Source: Parcubacteria group bacterium (GTDB taxonomy: Bacteria; Patescibacteriota; Patescibacteriia; Buchananbacterales; UBA6539). Taken from it: a DNA stretch of 64,000 bases. Position numbers and translations under genes: made by a program. Shown here in pieces: positions 24,766 to 53,997 of the stretch (the first letter of the stretch is position 1; each line of letters opens with the position of its first letter). Location: contig NYZP01000001.1 of the NCBI GenBank assembly GCA_002687175.1, forward strand, positions 149,607-213,606, written 5' to 3'. A model generated the notes under the pieces. The model saw only the letters and a program-made list of their open reading frames with translations, ran no database searches and was not told the origin of the DNA.

Positions 24766-25213
24766 AAATTCATTAAATAATACTCGTTAATTATATCAAA
24801 AAACCGCCCATAAGGCGATTTTTCGTACCTCTGAAAGTTCGTTTTTTATGTCTTCATACTCTTGGTATCCCTTCGGGGAGCTACTTTTGTAACCAAAAGT
24901 AGCCAAAAGTTCCGGGGGCCTTTATTCGCCTTATGGGCGGTTTACCTATAGCTCTCTCGCCAGGGGCTCAGAACGGCCCCCGGACCCCCGCCCACAAGAA
25001 CATTACTGTGGTATTAAATCTATAGAGGCAAAATCATTAGCAAAAAACTAATAAATGGGGGTTTGGGGGCGGCGCCTTAGCGCCCCTATAGATACGGCAG
25101 AGGGTTAATCAACGTGATAGCGATTCGCCGCCCCCAAGAGTTTTCTGACCACTTTTGCGGCCAAAAGTGGTCACCGCCGTCAGGCAGAACAATACCACAC
25201 GGGTGACAAAAAT
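24766..25213. other. GC-rich, ORF-free, hairpin-dense block (candidate structured RNA or MITE-like element) of undetermined family; on the minus strand it forms the leader of glpX
   Basis: 18-bp perfect inverted repeat AAACCGCCCATAAGGCGA (24798-24815) with its complement at 24920-24937. 9-bp hairpins CTACTTTTG/CAAAAGTAG and CCACTTTTG/CAAAAGTGG. A UUCG tetraloop hairpin (cccTTCGggg). GGGGCGGCG/CGCCGCCCC long-range pair. CCCCCAAACCCCC on the minus strand. No ORF of 60 aa or more. Confidence 0.4.
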
Positions 25214-42497: not shown

Positions 42498-42522
42498 AAT
42501 TTTTACTAAAATAAGCCATCCG

Positions 42523-42594
42523 CTCCGAGGGCCGGATTCGAACCGGCAACCAATTGATTAACAGTCAACTGCTCTACCATTGAGCTACCTCGGA
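42523..42594 (-). tRNA. tRNA-Asn(GTT), copy A
   Basis: Minus strand reads TCCGAGGTAGCTCAATGGTAGAGCAGTTGACTGTTAATCAATTGGTTGCCGGTTCGAATCCGGCCCTCGGAG. Anticodon loop is CUGUUAA. Confidence 0.85.
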
Positions 42595-42683
42595 GCACAT
42601 GGCTCATTTTTTACTCTATTGCGCTATATTCTAATTTTAAAGTCTTTGACGGAAACCGGTCGGTCAGAAACGCTTCCGGTCTC

Positions 42684-42755
42684 CTCCGGGGGTCGGATTC
42701 GAACCGACAACCAATTGATTAACAGTCAACTGCTCTACCGTTGAGCTACCCCGGA
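42684..42755 (-). tRNA. tRNA-Asn(GTT), copy B (variant stems)
   Basis: Same fold with compensatory changes (CCCCGGA..GTCGG/CCGAC). Confidence 0.8.
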
Positions 42756-42845
42756 GCACATGGCTCATTTTTTTGCTCTACAAACTATATTTTAAATTTT
42801 CAAGCCCCTGACAGGAACCGGTCGCTTTGGAAAGCGTCCGATCTC

Positions 42846-42917
42846 CTCCGAGGGCCGGATTCGAACCGGCAACCAATTGATTAACAGTCAACTGCTCTAC
42901 CATTGAGCTACCTCGGA
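42846..42917 (-). tRNA. tRNA-Asn(GTT), copy C
   Basis: Identical to copy A. Confidence 0.85.
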
Positions 42918-42957
42918 ACTTAATTCTCCTTAATTACTTTTACCTTCTAAACCTTGA

Positions 42958-46208: not shown

Positions 46209-46247
46209 AGCGGAGGGGTGCCAGAGTGGTCGAATGGGACAGTCTTG
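46209..46247 (+). repeat. Exact 39-nt duplicate of the 5' half of tRNA-Ser(TGA), truncated inside the anticodon loop
   Basis: AGCGGAGGGGTGCCAGAGTGGTCGAATGGGACAGTCTTG is identical to 46541-46579. The copy ends after CTTG of the anticodon loop and is followed by two GC hairpins (CCCGCC-agag-GCGGG and TCCGCC-ttcg-GCGGA). Confidence 0.85.
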
Positions 46248-46295
46248 CCCGCCAGAGGCGGGTCCGCCTTCGGCGGAAAAACAACTACCTTGAGT

Positions 46296-46580
46296 ATGCC
46301 TTGCACTTATATTTTATATAGTAGGTCAACCAACAAATTTTATACTGGATCAAGCAGAGAAAAAGCCGCTAATAATCGTTTAAAATCACATAACGCCGGA
46401 AAAACTAAATCGACAAAAGCTGGCCGTCCCTGGATAATTATTCATCAAGAAAAATACCAAAATTATACTGATGCCAGAAAAAGAGAAATTTTTTTAAAAT
46501 CAGGTCAAGGACGCAAATATATTAAAACTTTAAACAGCAGAGCGGAGGGGTGCCAGAGTGGTCGAATGGGACAGTCTTGA
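46296..46580 (+). CDS. GIY-YIG nuclease family protein (~94 aa); its 3' end overlaps the 5' half of tRNA-Ser
   Basis: MPCTYILYSRSTNKFYTGSSREKAANNRLKSHNAGK...RPWIIIHQEKYQNYTDARKREIFLKSGQGRKYI gives the GIY...YIG...R...E...N pattern. Confidence 0.55.
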   Translation: MPCTYILYSRSTNKFYTGSSREKAANNRLKSHNAGKTKSTKAGRPWIIIHQEKYQNYTDARKREIFLKSGQGRKYIKTLNSRAEGCQSGRMGQS

Positions 46581-46630
46581 AAACTGTTGAGGCAGCAATG
46601 TCTCCGTGGGTTCGAATCCCACTCCCTCCG
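46544..46630 (+). tRNA. tRNA-Ser(TGA)
   Basis: GGAGGGG-TG-CCAGAGTGGTCGAATGGG-ACAGTC-TTGAAAA-..., long variable arm, GTGGGTTCGAATCCCAC T-arm. No encoded CCA. Confidence 0.85.
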
Positions 46631-46656
46631 CTCTGCTGTTTATTTAACTTATAAGA

Positions 46657-48119: not shown

Positions 48120-48469
48120 GCGGCGCGCCAACTTCGTTGGCACGAAATTCGGCGACGGCGGAAAGCGAGGGCGGGCAAAAATTCCTTCCCCCCCCCAACC
48201 CCCTTCCTTTTTGCCCGCCCGAGCGTTGGGGTGGGAAGCGGCTCGTCTCTGCGTCAGCAGAGAAGCAAAGCTCGCAAAAATTGTTTCCTTAATTAAAATT
48301 TGCGCGCGCCCATTAAAAGAAAAAGAAATTTTTGCGAGCTTTGCTGGCCGCCGTCAGGCGGCGAGCCGATGGGCGGGTTCACTCAGCGAAATCCGTAGGA
48401 TTTTGCTCAAACATTGTTCGAACTTCGTCCAAAAAACACCGCCACTATTAAAAATCTAAAAAATTATTT
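48120..48469. other. GC-rich, ORF-free, hairpin-dense block of undetermined family between convergent genes
   Basis: UUCG hairpin GCCAAC-ttcg-GTTGGC. Long stem GCGAGGGCGGGCAAAAA...TTTTTGCCCGCCCGAGCG enclosing a C9 run (..TTCCCCCCCCCAACCCCC..). CTCTGC-gtca-GCAGAG and GCCGCC-gtca-GGCGGC hairpins. A ~20-bp long-range pair GAAGCAAAGCTCGCAAAAATT / AATTTTTGCGAGCTTTGC. Shares CCGCCGTCAGGC and the CCCCCAA(A)CCCCC motif with block 24766-25213. Confidence 0.4.
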
Positions 48470-49306: not shown

Positions 49307-50779
49307 TTAGTCAACATTGGGCTTTTTGGTGTGCCAATCAGTTGCCTGCTGATATTGATGCCCAACTCTTAAAATAGTTCCTTCGTCAAACTGCTTTCCA
49401 ATAATTTGCAGACCCACGGGTAGCTCTTTTTCGCCATCTTTTGGTTTAGCCATGCCACACGGCAGAGAAACTCCAGGCAGCCCAGCAATATTAGCTGTTA
49501 CTGTAAAAACATCATTTAAATACATAGTGATAGGATCTTCAATTTTTTCACCTAATTTAAAAGCTGGCGTAGGAGTTGTGGGGGTTACCAAACAATCAAC
49601 CTGTTTAAAAACATTTTCAAAATCTTTTTTAATTAGAGTTCTAACTTTTTGAGCTTTTAGATAGTAAGCATCATAGTAACCAGCAGATAATGAATAGGTT
49701 CCAACCATTATGCGTCTCCGTACTTCATCTCCAAAACCAGTTGCCTTAGTTTTTAAATATTGATCTAAAAGATTTTCTGCTGGTTCAACACTACCATACC
49801 TAATACCATCATAACGTGCTAAATTTGAACTTAATTCGGATGGCATAATAATATAGTAAACCGGTAAACCATATTTAGTATGAGGTAAGCTAACATCAAC
49901 AATTTCTGCTCCTAAATCTTTTAATTGATCAATTGCTTGTTTAACAACTTTTTCAACTTCTGGATCAATACCTTCAATAAAATATTCTTTTGGTATTCCA
50001 ATTTTTAATCCTTTAATGTCTTTATTAATTTCGTTAACATAGTCAGGAACATCTTTATTTACTATAGTGGAATCTTTTTTATCCAAGCTGGCAATTTGTT
50101 TTAAAACAATAGCTGCGTCTTCTACCGTTTTCGTTACTGGACCAACTTGATCTAAAGATGATGCCATGGCAATTACTCCATAACGGGAAACTCGTCCATA
50201 AGTTGGCTTTAGTCCTACCACGCCTGTCAGAGAAGCTGGCTGTCTAATTGAGCCTCCAGTGTCAGTACCAAGAGCATAAATACATTGATCAGCTGACACC
50301 GAAGCGGTTGAACCTCCAGAGCTGCCACCAGGAACCCTCTCTAAATCCCAGGGATTTTTGGTCTGGCCAAAGTAAGAAGTTTCAGTTGATGATCCACAAG
50401 CAAATTCATCCATATTAGTTTTACCAACAATAACTGCATCATCCCCTAAATTTTTAACCGCTGTTGAAGAGTACGGTGGGGTATAATTTTCTAAAATTTT
50501 TGAAGCGGCCGTGGTTTTAATATCCTTAGTACAAAAAATATCTTTTATGCCGACAGGAATACCGGACAAGGGATTTTCAAAATTTTCTGCATCATCAACC
50601 TTCTTGGCCTTAGCCAGGGCTTCATCTTTAGTAACCGTAATAAAAGCTTTTAGCTTTTCGTCTGTCTTTTCAATATTATCTAAACAAACTTGGGTTAACT
50701 CAACTGAAGAAAATTCTTTTTTCTTCAAACCTTCATTGGCCTGTTTGATTGTCAGTTCGTTTAAATTCATACTATTCAA
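49307..50779 (-). CDS. gatA: Glu-tRNA(Gln) amidotransferase subunit A
   Basis: Amidase signature [11 protein letters not shown]...[12 protein letters not shown]. 490 aa. Confidence 0.9.
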
Positions 50780-51065
50780 ACACTGCTTTGGTCTTAATTA
50801 AATCATCTTCGGTTTTGGGTGCTTGCTTAAGTAATTTATCACGGACTTCCTTGTCAGTTTCTTCAACTGAGTCTTCACGCATCACATTTTCCAACCCAGT
50901 CACTTGAGCACTTGGCTCAACACCATCAGTCTTAACTTCTTTTAACTGTTCAACATAATCTAAAATAGAGGAAAGCTGAGTAGTAAACTTCTCTTTTTCC
51001 TCTTCAGTTAAGCCCAGACGGGCTAATATGGCTATTTTTTCGACTTCTTCTTTAGATAAAGACAT
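50772..51065 (-). CDS. gatC: Glu-tRNA(Gln) amidotransferase subunit C
   Basis: 97 aa, [21 protein letters not shown], overlaps gatA by 8 bp. Confidence 0.8.
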
Positions 51066-51168
51066 AAATAATACCTATATAGTATAGCCACAATTTATCC
51101 ATTTGACAACCTAAAACAGTAATGATATCATTTTTATTATTCCAATAAACTATTTTGTTTTATTGGTA

Positions 51169-51293
51169 GGGCTTGTAGCTCAGGGGTAGAGCGTCTGAGA
51201 CCAACATTTTAATCAATCAGTGAGGGTACCCGATCTGTGCGATGATGTTGGAAAATCAGAAAGTCAGGGGTTCAAATCCCTTCAGGCCCACCA
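51169..51293 (+). tRNA. tRNA (Ile-like acceptor and T-arm) with a ~50-nt intervening sequence in the anticodon loop; anticodon unresolved
   Basis: GGGCTTG-TA-GCTCAGGGGTAGAGC-G-TCTGA-[57 nt: GACCAACAT...ATGTTGGAAAA]-TCAGA-AAGTC-AGGGGTTCAAATCCCTT-CAGGCCC-A-CCA. The insert has a 7-bp stem CCAACAT/ATGTTGG. Followed by TTTTTT. Confidence 0.55.
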
Positions 51294-51310
51294 TTTTTTG
51301 TTCTTAAAGA

Positions 51311-51390
51311 GCTGGGGTAGCTCAGTGGTAGAGCTGTTGACTTCTTCGGATAGTTGATGGTCGGGGGTTCAAATCCCTCCTCCAGCTCCA
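51311..51390 (+). tRNA. Atypical tRNA, candidate tRNA-Arg(UCG) with an apparently extended (8-bp, G:U-rich) anticodon stem
   Basis: GCTGGGG-TA-GCTC-AGTGGTA-GAGC, anticodon loop CUUCGGA, GGGGG-TTCAAAT-CCCTC T-arm, CTCCAGC-T-CCA. There are 28 nt between the D and T stems where 22-23 are expected. Direct repeat GTTGA...GTTGA. Confidence 0.45.
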
Positions 51391-51394
51391 ATTA

Positions 51395-51953
51395 CTTTTG
51401 ATCCGGTCCCCGCTGAAAAGTGGCGATACGTCTATTTGACAGAACCGAGGGGTTCTCCAAACAGAGAAGACAGGGTAATGTCACCGGATCTTGGAACGGA
51501 TGTCCTCGGACATAGTGTTCTCCCCCTATCTAGGGCGAACTAATGCGCAAGCATTATTACTTCAGACTTTGGTCTGACCGTTCCGCCAATGTTTCAACTT
51601 TGTCTCGAATTCGCAAGAGGCGAGACGAGTTGACCCCGGACACTCAGACTGCACCCCCAGCCTGAGTGTCCACTCTACATTTTTTCCAGCCTGAATCCCT
51701 TGCGGCCAGGCTGTCACCTGGGGTCACCTGGATAACCCGAGTCTGGGTGACCCCTCTATTACAATGTCCCGCGCTCAAGCGCTTGGCATAGGCACATCTT
51801 TATCTTCAAAAGCCCAAACAAACTCGACGAGACCATGATTTGGTGCAACCCTTCAAAAGAGGATCCCGGGATTCTCTGGCGCTAGGCGTTCAATCCTTTC
51901 ATGTCTTTCGAAAAAAAATCGCTCTTAGCTGTGAGCGGCGTAACGGGCTCCTA
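51395..51953 (+). other. GC-rich, ORF-free, hairpin-dense block ending in a plus-strand terminator; candidate structured RNA of undetermined family
   Basis: Perfect 10-bp hairpin GGACACTCAG-actgcacccccagc-CTGAGTGTCC, GGGTCACC...GGTGACCC, GTCTCG-aattcgcaagag-GCGAGAC, GAACC-gagg-GGTTC. No RNase P (GGAAAGTCCGGGC / ACAGAA..GCTTA in the right order), tmRNA or SRP (GGAAGGAAGCAGC) hallmark was found by eye. Confidence 0.4.
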
Positions 51954-51979
51954 GAAGGTGATGTGCCTTCTTTTTTTAC
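51954..51979 (+). terminator. Intrinsic terminator
   Basis: AGAAGG-tgatgtg-CCTTCT followed by TTTTTT. Overlaps the ligA stop on the opposite strand. Confidence 0.5.
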
Positions 51980-53997
51980 TTTAATAATTTTAAAAACTCT
52001 TTCTCCTCAATAACCTTAACTCCCAAGTCCTTGGCTTTTTGTAACTTTGATCCAGGGTTTTCACCAACTACCAGGTAATCAGTATTCTTAGAAACCGAAG
52101 ATACCCAGTCCCCTCCAACTTGTCGGATTTTCTGTTTAGCTTCATCGCGAGATAAAGAAGAGAGTGAACCAGTAACCACAATTTTTCTACCAGTTAATGG
52201 TCCAGATTTAATTGAAACTTTTTGATTCTGGACATCAACTCCAACACTTGCTAAATCATCAAGTAACTTTAAATTATTTTTATCACTAAACCAATCGGCG
52301 ATACTTTGTGCCACAATCGGACCAATATCTTCCACTGATTCTAAGTCACTGTCTGATAATTTTTTAATCTTGGCTAAACTGCCAAATTTATTTGCCAAAG
52401 CAATCGCCGTTTCTTCACCAACGTTAGCTATTCCTAAAGAATATAAAAATTTAGGTAAAGTTATTGTCTTAACCTGGTTAATTGAGTCAAGCAAGTTGTC
52501 AGCAGATTTTTCAGCAAAGCGTTCTAAGCCAACCAGGTCATCTTTTTCTAATCTAAAAATATCGGCCGGAGTTTTTAGTAAACCTTCCTCCATTAATTGA
52601 ACCACAATTTTTTCTCCCAACCCGTCAATATTAAAAGCCTTCTTGGATACAAAATGAATTACTCCTCGTTGTTGTTGAGCAAAACACTGTTTATTGGTAC
52701 AAAACAGATCAACGCTATCACTACCTTTCTCAGCGCGTTTTTGAGTTATTGCCGAACCGCAAGCCGGACACTTATGAGGCATAACAAACTTCTTTTCTTT
52801 ACCTGTTCGTAGCTTTGTTAAGACAGACACCACTTCGGGAATAATTTCTCCAGCCTTACGAATGACTACAGTATCACCAATTTTCACTCCCAAGCGTTTA
52901 ATCTGGTCTTCATTATGTAACGTTGCACGCTTGACCGTTGTTCCGGCCAGTTTAACCGGGCGGAGGTGGGCCACTGGCGTGAGGGTGCCAAGCCGACCGA
53001 CTTGAACCGTAATATTTTCAATGACCGTTGTAACTTTTTCAGCGGCAAATTTGAAAGCAATGGTTGATCGAGGCGCTTTGCCAACAAACCCTAAACGATC
53101 TCGATAATCAACACTATTAATTTTAACCACCACCCCATCAATCCAATATGGTTCTGACTTCCGTTTTTTATCCCAAGTTTTCCAGAAACTGATCACTTCC
53201 TCTAAATTTTTACACACCTGGTAATGCTGATTAACTTTAAAACCTAATTTTTTTAGCTCTTCAAGTTTTGCCAACTGATTAGTTGGTATTTTATCGGTAC
53301 CGCCAGACCAGGAATAAATAAAACAGTCCAGTTTTCTTTTAGCCGCTACTTTAGGGTCTAATTGTCTAATGGTACCGGCCGCAGCGTTACGAGGATTAGC
53401 GAATTCTGGTTGGCCATCTTTCTTTCTTTGTTTATTAATCAAATTAAGCTGTTTTTCTGACAACCAAACTTCTCCTTCAACGATAATGTTAGCTGGTTTT
53501 TTTAATTTTAATGGAACGCTTTGAATAGTTTTTATATTTTTGGTAACATCTTCGCCAATCTGGCCATCACCACGTGTAGCCGCCGTCACTAAAACTCCAT
53601 TTTCATAAGTGAAAACAATGTGCAAGCCGTCAATTTTAATTTCACAGACATATTCTAGCTTTGGCTTATGCCCTAAATTTTTAATTAATAATTTTTCAAT
53701 TCTTTCTTGCCAATCAAAAAGTTCCGCTTCCGAAAAAGCATCATTAAAAGACCACTGACGTACTTGATGTTTTACTTTTACAAATTTATCAAGCGGTTCT
53801 CCGCCAATTCTTTCCAATGGAGAATCAGCACGTTTTAAATCCGGAAATTCTTTTTCTAACTTAGCTAATTCTTGCTGCAAAGAATCATAAACCTCATCAC
53901 TCACTGCCGGATCATCCAAAACATGATAGCGCTTCCGCAAATCATCAATTTGTACAACCAGTTTGTCTATTCTGTTTTTAGCTGACTTTTTATCCAT
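51976..53997 (-). CDS. ligA: NAD-dependent DNA ligase
   Basis: KIDGL adenylation motif, Zn-finger cysteines, HhH and C-terminal BRCT. 673 aa. Confidence 0.95.
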   Translation of the reverse strand: MDKKSAKNRIDKLVVQIDDLRKRYHVLDDPAVSDEVYDSLQQELAKLEKEFPDLKRADSPLERIGGEPLDKFVKVKHQVRQWSFNDAFSEAELFDWQERIEKLLIKNLGHKPKLEYVCEIKIDGLHIVFTYENGVLVTAATRGDGQIGEDVTKNIKTIQSVPLKLKKPANIIVEGEVWLSEKQLNLINKQRKKDGQPEFANPRNAAAGTIRQLDPKVAAKRKLDCFIYSWSGGTDKIPTNQLAKLEELKKLGFKVNQHYQVCKNLEEVISFWKTWDKKRKSEPYWIDGVVVKINSVDYRDRLGFVGKAPRSTIAFKFAAEKVTTVIENITVQVGRLGTLTPVAHLRPVKLAGTTVKRATLHNEDQIKRLGVKIGDTVVIRKAGEIIPEVVSVLTKLRTGKEKKFVMPHKCPACGSAITQKRAEKGSDSVDLFCTNKQCFAQQQRGVIHFVSKKAFNIDGLGEKIVVQLMEEGLLKTPADIFRLEKDDLVGLERFAEKSADNLLDSINQVKTITLPKFLYSLGIANVGEETAIALANKFGSLAKIKKLSDSDLESVEDIGPIVAQSIADWFSDKNNLKLLDDLASVGVDVQNQKVSIKSGPLTGRKIVVTGSLSSLSRDEAKQKIRQVGGDWVSSVSKNTDYLVVGENPGSKLQKAKDLGVKVIEEKEFLKLLK

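What the first reader, a model, noticed from the sequence alone, without database searches (positions are those of the whole stretch)
51395..51980. ~560-nt GC-rich ORF-free block downstream of two tRNAs, ending in a clean plus-strand terminator
It contains multiple perfect 8-10-bp hairpins and its own terminator, which is consistent with a discrete plus-strand RNA gene co-transcribed with or following the tRNAs. The size and lack of recognisable RNase P, tmRNA, SRP or group II domain V signatures make the family unclear. It could be a novel large ncRNA or a decayed element.
Basis: seen in the sequence. Interest (0 to 1): 0.6.

Follow-up and report, generated by a model that had tools for sequence, protein, structure and literature searches.

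The report
Orphan structured RNA behind tRNA-like genes
A ~580-base, GC-rich, very strongly folding non-coding stretch sits behind two defective tRNA look-alikes in a tiny-genome (Patescibacteria) bacterium; it looks like a real but lineage-specific RNA gene that matches no known RNA family, and its function remains unknown.

Summary
Window 51391-51980 is 51% GC against 36% for the window. It has no credible ORF and folds far better than shuffled controls (z = -11.2; coding controls run -2.1 to +2.4). It lies between a strong sigma-70-type promoter (51103-51131) and an intrinsic terminator (51953-51978).

Rfam 15 finds nothing there, even at E<=10. RNase P, tmRNA, 6S, SRP, group I/II introns, ROOL, GOLLD and YrlA are all excluded.

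The two upstream "tRNAs" cannot decode. One has a conserved 50-nt extension of the anticodon arm. The other has a cUUCGg hairpin in place of the anticodon loop.

The organism is a Buchananbacteria-like CPR bacterium, and no relative closer than 75% LigA identity exists in any collection searched. Related genomes keep the gatC-ligA locus, the promoter and, in one relative (L003), an identical terminator helix. They also carry equally strongly folding GC-rich non-coding RNA there (z -4.5 to -11.4), but the body sequence is not alignable.

Best reading: a tRNA-punctuated, fast-evolving structured ncRNA unit. Expression and function are unproven. A neutral hairpin-rich trailer remains a serious rival.

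The parts
51103..51131 (+). Sigma-70-type promoter: -35 TTGACA, 17-nt spacer with TG, -10 TATCAT (11 of 12 matches).
   Evidence: The TTGACAAG block and the sequence upstream of it align with the same position in L003, L085, L088, L130, L163 and L006.
51169..51290 (+). tRNA-like module 1. It has a normal acceptor, D arm, T arm and encoded CCA, but the anticodon loop is replaced by a ~50-nt extension of the anticodon arm. The apical loop carries the palindrome GGGUACCC (51224-51231).
   Evidence: Rfam tRNA 53.7 bits with a 57-nt insert. Cloverleaf plus long arm in the MFE. One homologue in L084:5482-5605(-) keeps the arm, with both-sides changes at 3 arm pairs and 5 acceptor pairs. The covariance model finds only these two copies in 70 sources.
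51311..51390 (+). tRNA-like module 2. It has a cloverleaf and encoded CCA, but a 13-nt 'anticodon loop' CUUCUUCGGAUAG that can form a cUUCGg-capped hairpin. ARAGORN's call of 'tRNA-Lys CTT' is forced.
   Evidence: Its D and T arms are near-identical to module 1 (D3/D4).
51391..51952 (+). Body of the GC-rich structured RNA. It has four predicted domains: D1 51400-51490, D2 51493-51584 (a closing helix enclosing four hairpins), D3 51585-51787 and D4 51790-51968.
   Evidence: MFE and z-score. Helix list with base-pair probabilities, most above 0.9, and GNRA loops at 51415, 51547 and 51613. No Rfam, phage, plasmid or viral match.
51790..51968 (+). 3' domain, closed by AGGCACAUC / GAUGUGCCU (9 bp, 161 nt apart). 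These are the only parts of the block with sequence identity to a relative (L003).
   Evidence: I9; 19 of 19 identity to L003 at the equivalent terminator. One search shows the same 5' arm in L003. Searches show terminators of similar design, GGCGCAGUC..GACUGCGCC, in L163 and L164.
51953..51978 (+). Intrinsic terminator of the plus-strand unit: stem AGAAGG/CCTTCT followed by a T run. The T run abuts or overlaps the ligA stop codon (51976-51978).
51912..51937 (-). Intrinsic terminator of the convergent ligA gene: CGCTCACAGCTAAGAGCG plus T8. It lies inside the block, so the two transcripts would overlap by about 65 nt.
   Evidence: The overlap itself is an inference.

Best explanation
This is a lineage-specific, plus-strand, non-coding transcription unit in a Buchananbacteria-like Patescibacteria genome.

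Proposed sequence of events:
1. A conserved sigma-70-type promoter (51103-51131) drives an ~840-nt primary transcript.
2. The transcript holds two tRNA-shaped modules that can no longer decode.
3. It continues into a ~560-580-nt GC-rich, four-domain structured RNA.
4. It ends at an intrinsic terminator (51953-51978) that abuts the stop codon of the convergent ligA gene.

Inferred mechanism: the tRNA-like modules act as processing punctuation. RNase P and tRNA 3'-end maturation would cut the precursor and release both the modules and the large RNA. The large RNA then persists as a stable, self-contained structured RNA acting in trans, as a scaffold, a decoy, or a partner of the ligA 3' UTR.

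Shown here: the composition, the extreme foldability, the promoter and terminator, the tRNA-like anatomy, the absence from known families, and conservation of the locus architecture.

Inferred only: transcription, processing, and any trans function.
For: 1. The block is 51% GC in a 36% GC window where ordinary intergenic regions are 28-35% GC. That is hard to maintain without selection in an AT-rich genome.
2. Its z-score of -11.2 is the most extreme in the window. Coding controls run -2.1 to +2.4 and AT-rich intergenic regions 0 to -2.7. Most helices have pair probability above 0.9.
3. There is a strong promoter and a terminator on the plus strand. Three of eight tetraloops are GNRA on the plus strand against none of six on the minus strand.
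4. The locus architecture is conserved. In relatives with 62-75% LigA identity the gatC-ligA spacer is mostly 500-1700 nt and non-coding. The promoter block aligns. The spacer bodies fold with z from -4.5 to -11.4. The terminator arms are identical in L003, and L163 and L164 have terminators of similar design.
5. The tRNA-like modules keep the cloverleaf through compensatory changes but have no anticodon loop, as expected for processing or structural modules. Module 1's extended arm is conserved in L084.
6. It is not coding. There is no Pfam match and no peptide conservation.
Against: - There are no expression data.
- The body is not alignable with any relative by nhmmer --max, blastn or tblastx. 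No covariation supports the predicted fold.
- The amount of RNA at this locus varies from ~130 nt (L006) to more than 1.5 kb (L087, L164). That argues against one conserved molecular machine.
- Both strands fold equally well, and G.U counts do not favour the plus strand.
- The C>G skew of the block equals the window background.
- Small direct repeats inside the block (D5, D7, D8) suggest that hairpins arise by local duplication. That could be a neutral process.
- Two other GC-rich hairpin-rich spacers exist in the same 64 kb, so this may be a general genomic habit rather than a specific gene.
Confidence: 0.5

Rival explanations
1. It is a neutral or selfish hairpin-rich spacer. A permissive trailer behind a tRNA operon accumulates GC-rich inverted repeats by local duplication, template switching, or insertion of small palindromic elements (comparable to mitochondrial GC clusters, RPE, or REP/MITE). 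It is transcribed only incidentally and has no function of its own.
For: - The body has no sequence conservation among relatives, and its length varies from 130 nt to more than 1.5 kb.
- Both strands fold equally well, as DNA-level palindromes would.
- The block contains small internal direct repeats, including the tandem GTCACCTGG pair and the CCAGCCTGA pair.
- tRNA genes at this locus in relatives carry hairpin insertions in the D, anticodon and T loops.
- A shared GCCAGAGGCG..CCGCCTTCGGCGG module occurs at window 46250 and in L005.
- An IS200-type transposase sits in the same spacer in L164.
Against: - No hairpin of the block recurs elsewhere in the 64-kb window. The best non-self hit is 20 nt at 90% identity, E = 0.11.
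- High GC persists at this locus across diverged AT-rich genomes, where neutral DNA should decay towards AT.
- The promoter is conserved across relatives, and the terminator arms are identical in L003.
- GNRA loops are enriched on the plus strand only.
- Perfectly nested long-range helices enclose multi-hairpin domains, and those helices have high pair probability.
Confidence: 0.25
2. It is a structured 3' trailer whose role is local. It would act as a multi-hairpin barrier that ends and stabilises the tRNA-like transcript, insulates it from the convergent ligA transcription, and perhaps couples the two through the ~65-nt overlap of their 3' ends.
For: - The two terminators face each other inside the last 70 nt.
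- The only sequence in the block shared with a relative (L003) is its terminator helix.
- Short versions of the locus (L006, L089) are little more than a promoter, one or two long hairpins and a U run.
Against: - About 560 nt and some 16 hairpins are far more than termination or insulation needs.
- Domains D1-D3 lie 180-570 nt upstream of the terminator and are not followed by U runs.
Confidence: 0.15
3. It is a remnant of foreign or coding DNA: a decayed gene, or the scar of an element that integrated at the tRNA gene.
For: - It has foreign-looking GC content and lies directly 3' of tRNA-derived genes, a classical integration target.
- An IS200-type Y1 transposase lies in the same spacer of L164.
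Against: - There is no Pfam match in any ORF fragment and no tblastx similarity.
- There is no similarity to phage, plasmid or viral contigs.
- There is no integrase, no att-like direct repeat of the tRNA 3' end, and no mobile gene between 48.5 and 55.7 kb.
- A decaying gene would not give z = -11 or GNRA-capped hairpins.
Confidence: 0.05
4. It is a highly divergent member of a known RNA family that the models miss. Candidates are RNase P RNA, tmRNA, 6S, a group I intron such as those recently described in Patescibacteria tRNA genes, ROOL or GOLLD.
For: - Patescibacteria RNAs are often divergent.
- Group I introns are common in their tRNA genes (PMC13011429).
- ROOL averages 581 nt and lies near tRNAs (PMC5737381).
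Against: - None of these families appears even at E<=10 with relaxed filters on 951 nt.
- ARAGORN finds no tmRNA.
- No tRNA 3' exon follows the block, so it is not an intron in a tRNA.
- Relatives' loci also give only tRNA hits.
Confidence: 0.03

Closest known systems
ROOL and GOLLD ('ornate large' bacterial RNAs; Rfam RF03087, RF01998)
   Same: It is a large non-coding RNA of ~580 nt (ROOL averages 581 nt). It is predicted to form several multistem domains. It lies next to tRNA genes and shows up as a GC-rich spacer (PMC5737381).
   Different: There is no covariance-model match even at E<=10. There is no prophage context; the neighbours are gatCAB and ligA. It has no conserved core: ROOL and GOLLD are recognisable across phyla, whereas this body is unalignable at 75% LigA identity.
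tRNA-punctuated or tRNA-linked non-coding transcripts (the MALAT1-mascRNA arrangement; bacterial tRNA-operon spacers such as the 3'ETS of leuZ that act as RNA sponges; cited from my own knowledge)
   Same: tRNA-shaped modules share a transcript with a functional non-tRNA RNA, and tRNA-processing enzymes could define the ends. The modules here keep the cloverleaf and CCA but not the anticodon.
   Different: The known bacterial cases are short spacers (tens of nt) in operons of genuine tRNAs. Here the trailer is ~580 nt and highly structured, and the tRNA modules themselves are non-decoding. Processing was not tested.
YrlA / bacterial Y RNAs (RF02553)
   Same: They are also non-coding RNAs that contain tRNA-like D and T arms. 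A weak hit spans the T arm of module 1 and the D arm of module 2.
   Different: The score is 23.4 bits against a gathering score of 69. The hit is simply two adjacent tRNA halves. No Ro/Rsr gene lies at the locus, where the neighbours are gatC and ligA.
Repetitive GC-rich palindromic elements of AT-rich genomes (REP/BIME with RAYT transposases, Rickettsia RPE, mitochondrial GC clusters)
   Same: It is a cluster of GC-rich hairpins in an intergenic region of an AT-rich genome. A Y1 transposase lies in the equivalent spacer of one relative.
   Different: The hairpins here are all different from each other and are not repeated in the 64-kb window. They are nested inside long-range helices.

Membership tests
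ROOL (RF03087) | Match to the family covariance model (conserved multistem junctions and pseudoknots). | tested here: not met
   ROOL is not listed at gathering score or at E<=10 on 51100-52050.
ROOL (RF03087) | About 580 nt, adjacent to tRNA genes, often in prophages. | tested here: inconclusive
   Length and tRNA adjacency fit. The prophage context is absent; the neighbours are gatC, gatA, DsbA-like and ligA.
GOLLD (RF01998) | Match to the family covariance model. | tested here: not met
Bacterial RNase P RNA (RF00010/RF00011) | Covariance-model match, including the conserved P4 core. | tested here: not met
tmRNA | tRNA-like domain formed by the two ends, plus a tag reading frame. | tested here: not met
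   ARAGORN found no tmRNA in the window. Rfam found none.
Group I intron in a tRNA gene (as in Patescibacteria, PMC13011429) | Catalytic-core model match, with tRNA exon halves flanking the insert. | tested here: not met
   There is no Intron_gpI hit. The block follows a complete tRNA-like 3' end with CCA, and a terminator and ligA follow it rather than a 3' exon.
6S RNA (RF00013 and relatives) | A single ~180-nt irregular hairpin with a central bubble; a model match. | tested here: not met
   No hit. The block is a four-domain, ~580-nt structure.
YrlA / Y RNA (RF02553) | Model score at or above gathering (69 bits); linkage to rsr. | tested here: not met
   Score 23.4 bits, E = 0.023, spanning two adjacent tRNA-like genes. 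The neighbours are not rsr.
tRNA (for the two upstream genes) | Cloverleaf recognised by the tRNA model. | tested here: met
   53.7 and 49.0 bits against a gathering score of 29.
tRNA (for the two upstream genes) | A 7-nt anticodon loop with U33 and a readable anticodon. | tested here: not met
   Module 1 has 57 nt between the anticodon-stem strands, folding into a long arm. Module 2 has a 13-nt loop, CUUCUUCGGAUAG.
Repeated palindromic elements (REP/MITE-like) | The same element is present in many copies in the genome. | tested here: not met
   No second copy of any hairpin occurs in the 64-kb window. The rest of the genome was not available.
Intrinsic terminator (3' end of the unit) | A GC-containing stem-loop followed by a U run. 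| tested here: met
   (51953-51971 plus a T run).
Structured ncRNA gene in general | Covariation supports the fold across homologues. | not testable with these tools
   No alignable homologue of the body exists in the collections searched. The only other copies, L001 and L002, are 100% identical.
Structured ncRNA gene in general | The RNA is transcribed and accumulates. | not testable with these tools
   No expression data are available.

The most novel reading that the evidence does not exclude
The gatC-ligA spacer of Buchananbacteria-like Patescibacteria could be a dedicated expression site for a new class of large, fast-evolving structured RNAs. In this reading the RNAs are made as a tRNA-punctuated precursor. 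The tRNA-shaped modules have been converted from decoders into structural or decoy RNAs. Module 1 displays a conserved long arm whose apical loop carries a self-complementary GGGUACCC, which hints at kissing-loop dimerisation. The ~580-nt body would be a ROOL/GOLLD-like ornate RNA, possibly self-assembling or involved in a host-parasite arms race, which would explain its rapid sequence turnover under a conserved promoter and terminator.
Probability: 0.15. Interest if true: 0.75.

Novelty: new member of a known kind. Interest (0 to 1): 0.45.

Why it matters
Patescibacteria have about 1-Mb genomes under strong reduction, so a 0.9-kb non-coding locus kept across genera, with its own conserved promoter, is unexpected baggage. 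If the RNA is expressed, three things would follow:
- An uncharacterised large structured RNA would be added to a phylum where almost no ncRNAs beyond the universal ones are known.
- It would give a bacterial example of tRNA genes recycled into non-decoding processing or structural modules.
- It would give the ROOL/GOLLD question (why large ornate RNAs sit next to tRNAs) another independent case.

If it is only a hairpin-rich trailer, it is still a caution for annotation. ARAGORN and Rfam call the two modules as tRNAs (one as tRNA-Lys CTT), although they cannot decode.

Tried and rejected
- **Known RNA families.** I ran Rfam at gathering score on the whole window and at E<=10 on the locus, plus 20 related loci at gathering score. 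Only tRNA hits came back.
- **YrlA.** The 23-bit hit is an artefact of two adjacent tRNA halves.
- **Group I intron.** This was suggested by PMC13011429. There is no core match and no 3' exon.
- **Sequence homologues of the body.** I used nhmmer --max, blastn with word size 7, and tblastx against 166 loci from genome, metagenome and assembly collections. Apart from the identical copies L001 and L002, the only match is the 19-nt terminator arm in L003. Phage and plasmid collections and two viral-contig pattern scans gave nothing, or tRNA only.
- **Closer relatives.** The best LigA relative in 5.8 billion proteins is 75% identical.
- **Shared k-mers among the syntenic blocks.** Only terminator words and a few C-rich words such as CCCTCACA are shared, barely above shuffles.
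- **Repeat-family test inside the window.** Negative.
- **Anti-Shine-Dalgarno sponge idea.** I dropped the idea that C-rich loops sponge Shine-Dalgarno sequences, because few genes here have such a motif.
- **Strand assignment from folding.** Energy, G.U pairs and the G-poor unpaired fraction are not informative. Both strands fold equally well, and the C>G skew equals the window background.
- **Pseudogene test.** No Pfam match in any ORF fragment.
- **First z-score script.** It timed out and was rerun.
Full report
**Observation**

Window 51391-51980 lies between gatC (minus strand, 50772-51065) and the 3' end of ligA (minus strand, 51976-53997); both were identified by Pfam.

- Composition: the stretch 51395-51980 is 50.9% GC against 36.3% for the window. 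200-nt windows reach 0.50-0.57 while the flanks are 0.33-0.39.
- Coding potential: no ORF exceeds 57 aa. No ORF fragment has a Pfam match, and tblastx finds no conserved peptide in relatives.
- Folding: as plus-strand RNA it folds to -229.6 kcal/mol against -171.4 +/- 5.2 for dinucleotide shuffles, z = -11.2.
- Controls: twelve 580-nt coding segments of the same window give z between -2.1 and +2.4. AT-rich spacers give 0 to -2.7.
- Predicted structure: four domains, most helices with pair probability above 0.9. D1 is 51400-51490, D2 is 51493-51584 (a closing helix around four hairpins), D3 is 51585-51787 and D4 is 51790-51968.

**Transcription signals and strand**

A near-consensus promoter (TTGACA, 17 nt with TG, TATCAT) lies at 51103-51131 on the plus strand. 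An intrinsic terminator lies at 51953-51971, followed by a T run that reaches the ligA stop codon.

The scan also finds ligA's own terminator on the minus strand inside the block (stem 51937-51920, T8 at 51919-51912). The two convergent transcripts would therefore overlap by about 65 nt; this is an inference.

Three of the eight predicted tetraloops on the plus strand are GNRA (GAAA at 51415, GCAA at 51547, GCAA at 51613). None of the six on the minus strand is. A rough binomial estimate of my own for 3 of 8 at 1/32 each is about 2e-3.

Some other measures do not discriminate the strands:
- The minus strand folds to -226.1 kcal/mol.
- G.U counts are similar on both strands.
- The C>G skew of the block equals that of the whole window on this strand.

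The strand call therefore rests on the promoter, the orientation of the tRNA-like genes, the terminator and the GNRA loops.

**The two 'tRNAs'**

Rfam scores both as tRNA: 53.7 bits at 51169-51290 and 49.0 bits at 51311-51387. Neither has a normal anticodon loop.

Module 1:
- It has 57 nt between the strands of its anticodon stem. These fold into a long extension of that arm.
- A homologue exists in one relative (L084:5482-5605, minus strand). It keeps the arm and its GAGGGUACC core.
- Eight pairs changed on both sides with pairing kept: five in the acceptor stem and three in the anticodon stem and its extension.
- A covariance model built from the two sequences finds no further copy in 70 sources; all other hits are ordinary tRNAs.
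- The apical loop carries a self-complementary GGGUACCC (51224-51231). In L084 it is GGGUACCU, which remains self-pairing through G.U.

Module 2:
- It has a 13-nt loop, CUUCUUCGGAUAG, that can form a cUUCGg hairpin. ARAGORN's call of 'tRNA-Lys CTT' is forced.

Both modules encode CCA. Four of the five genuine tRNAs in the window (three Asn, Ser1) do not; Ser2 does.

At the same position the closest relative (L163) has an ordinary tRNA-Lys(CUU) with the same anticodon stem as module 1. The modules therefore look like tRNA genes converted to non-decoding RNAs that still keep the tRNA shape.

**Known families**

- Rfam 15 gives nothing but the tRNA hits, at gathering score on all 64 kb and at E<=10 with relaxed filters on 51100-52050. 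A 23-bit YrlA hit simply spans two adjacent tRNA halves.
- ARAGORN finds no tmRNA.
- ROOL averages 581 nt and, like GOLLD, often lies near tRNAs (PMC5737381). It resembles the block in size and context but not in sequence or structure.
- Group I introns are frequent in Patescibacteria tRNA genes (PMC13011429). The block follows a complete 3' end and has no 3' exon after it.
- Phage, plasmid and viral-contig searches give nothing beyond tRNA similarity.

**Relatives**

The window is identical over the overlapping stretches to two other contigs: NCBI GCA_002434675.1 contig DJKP01000039 and one ENA contig. The nearest other organisms are Buchananbacteria-like Patescibacteria with at most 75% LigA identity. 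That holds in GTDB species genomes, JGI metagenomes and a 5.8-billion-protein collection.

In these relatives gatC and ligA remain neighbours. The spacer is usually long and non-coding:

| Locus | Spacer length |
|---|---|
| L087 | ~1720 nt |
| L164 | ~1750 nt, including an IS200-type transposase gene |
| L163 | more than 1100 nt |
| L004 | 915 nt |
| L085 | ~780 nt |
| L003 | ~760 nt |
| L084 | 723 nt |
| L088 | 693 nt |
| L130 | 502 nt |
| L006 | ~220 nt |
| L089 | ~190 nt |

What is and is not shared:
- The promoter block (…TAGTATATAAGCATTTT…ATTTGACAAG) aligns among WIN, L003, L085, L088, L130, L163 and L006.
- Behind the promoter come zero to five tRNA or tRNA-like genes, then GC-rich RNA, then a long terminal hairpin with a U run.
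- The bodies fold with z from -4.5 to -11.4.
- The body of the window's block does not align with any of them.
- The exception is the terminal helix. AGGCACATC … GATGTGCCTTCTTTTTTT is identical in L003.
- L163 and L164 have terminators of similar design, GGCGCAGTC … GACTGCGCC. I read this as resemblance, not demonstrated covariation.

The architecture and the property of being highly structured, GC-rich RNA are conserved. The sequence is not.

**Interpretation**

The most economical reading is a non-coding transcription unit whose tRNA-shaped modules serve as processing or structural elements. Its ~580-nt trailer is then a stable structured RNA that evolves fast.

Evidence for selection:
- High GC persists in AT-rich genomes.
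- The promoter is conserved, and the terminator arms are identical in L003.
- The foldability is extreme.
- GNRA loops are enriched on the plus strand.

Evidence against a defined machine:
- There is no alignable body.
- Length varies about tenfold.
- Small internal duplications (D5, D7, D8) could generate hairpins neutrally.
- Two further GC-rich hairpin-rich spacers lie in the same 64 kb (24790-25213, z = -6.3; 48120-48440, z = -3.8).

Status of the rivals:
- A repeat-family origin is not supported within the window. The rest of the genome could not be searched.
- An anti-Shine-Dalgarno sponge role for the C-rich loops is unlikely, because few genes here carry such a motif.

**Verdict**

This is a real, unannotated, orphan candidate for a large structured ncRNA. 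It belongs to no known family and is linked to two non-decoding tRNA-like modules. Expression, fold and function are unproven. Interest is moderate.

The decisive data are strand-specific RNA reads on this contig and genomes close enough to test covariation.

Noticed in passing
window 51169-51290 and 51311-51390; L084:5482-5605(-): Both 'tRNAs' upstream of the block are non-decoding tRNA-like genes. Module 1 has a conserved ~50-nt extension of the anticodon arm with an apical palindrome GGGUACCC (51224-51231). Module 2 has a cUUCGg hairpin in place of the anticodon loop. Both encode CCA, whereas four of the five genuine tRNAs in the window do not. ARAGORN annotates module 2 as tRNA-Lys(CTT).
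   Followed up: yes
window 51912-51937 (minus strand): ligA's own intrinsic terminator lies inside the block. The plus-strand RNA and the ligA mRNA would therefore overlap tail to tail by about 65 nt.
   Followed up: partly
window 24790-25213: A second GC-rich (about 47-55%) ORF-free spacer folds strongly (z = -6.3 plus strand, -5.5 minus strand). It has no Rfam match even at E<=1. It is another orphan candidate for a structured RNA.
   Followed up: partly
window 48120-48440: A third GC-rich (up to 61%) hairpin block lies between convergent genes (a glycosyltransferase-like gene and a DsbA-like gene). It includes a long hairpin with a poly-C-rich loop (ccttcccccccccaacccccttcc). Its z-score is about -3.8 on both strands.
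   Followed up: partly
window 46212-46631: A duplicated 5' part of tRNA-Ser(TGA) starts at 46212 and matches the complete gene up to CTTG, which by my count is position 35/36 of the anticodon loop. It is followed by a GC-rich hairpin module (GCCAGAGGCG..CCGCCTTCGGCGG), then a GIY-YIG nuclease ORF (Pfam E = 1e-10, 46299-46541), then the complete tRNA-Ser (46544-46631). Position 35/36 is the group I intron insertion site reported for Patescibacteria tRNA-Asn and tRNA-Asp (PMC13011429). Rfam detects no intron here.
   Followed up: partly
window 42522-42918 (minus strand): There are three tandem tRNA-Asn(GTT) genes at a 161-162-nt period. My impression, not checked here, is that this is unusual redundancy for a reduced genome.
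   Followed up: no
L163:5412-6016(-), L089:3461-3648(-) (= L090:2633-2820), L004 spacer: tRNA genes in the same gatC-ligA spacer of relatives carry 40-115-nt insertions in the T loop (L163, two genes), the D loop (L163, L004) or the anticodon loop (L089, 188-nt gene). These are too short for group I introns and have no Rfam intron hit. L130 has tRNA-like genes with A34 anticodons (AGC, AAA).
   Followed up: partly
L164:5121-5558: An IS200/IS605-type Y1 transposase gene (PF01797) sits in the same spacer between the non-coding RNAs and ligA in one relative.
   Followed up: no
L005:5765-5800(-), window 46250-46285: The module GCCAGAGGCG-N-CCGCCTTCGGCGGAAAA is shared between the window and a relative with 71% LigA identity, in non-homologous places. 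GCCTCTGGCA hairpins also recur in L005 and L085. This hints at a small mobile or recurrent GC-rich hairpin element in this clade.
   Followed up: partly
L163, L164 and L003 spacers next to gatC: Long AT-rich perfect palindromes (40-80 nt) lie between the gatC start and the conserved promoter in several relatives. They are absent from the window.
   Followed up: no
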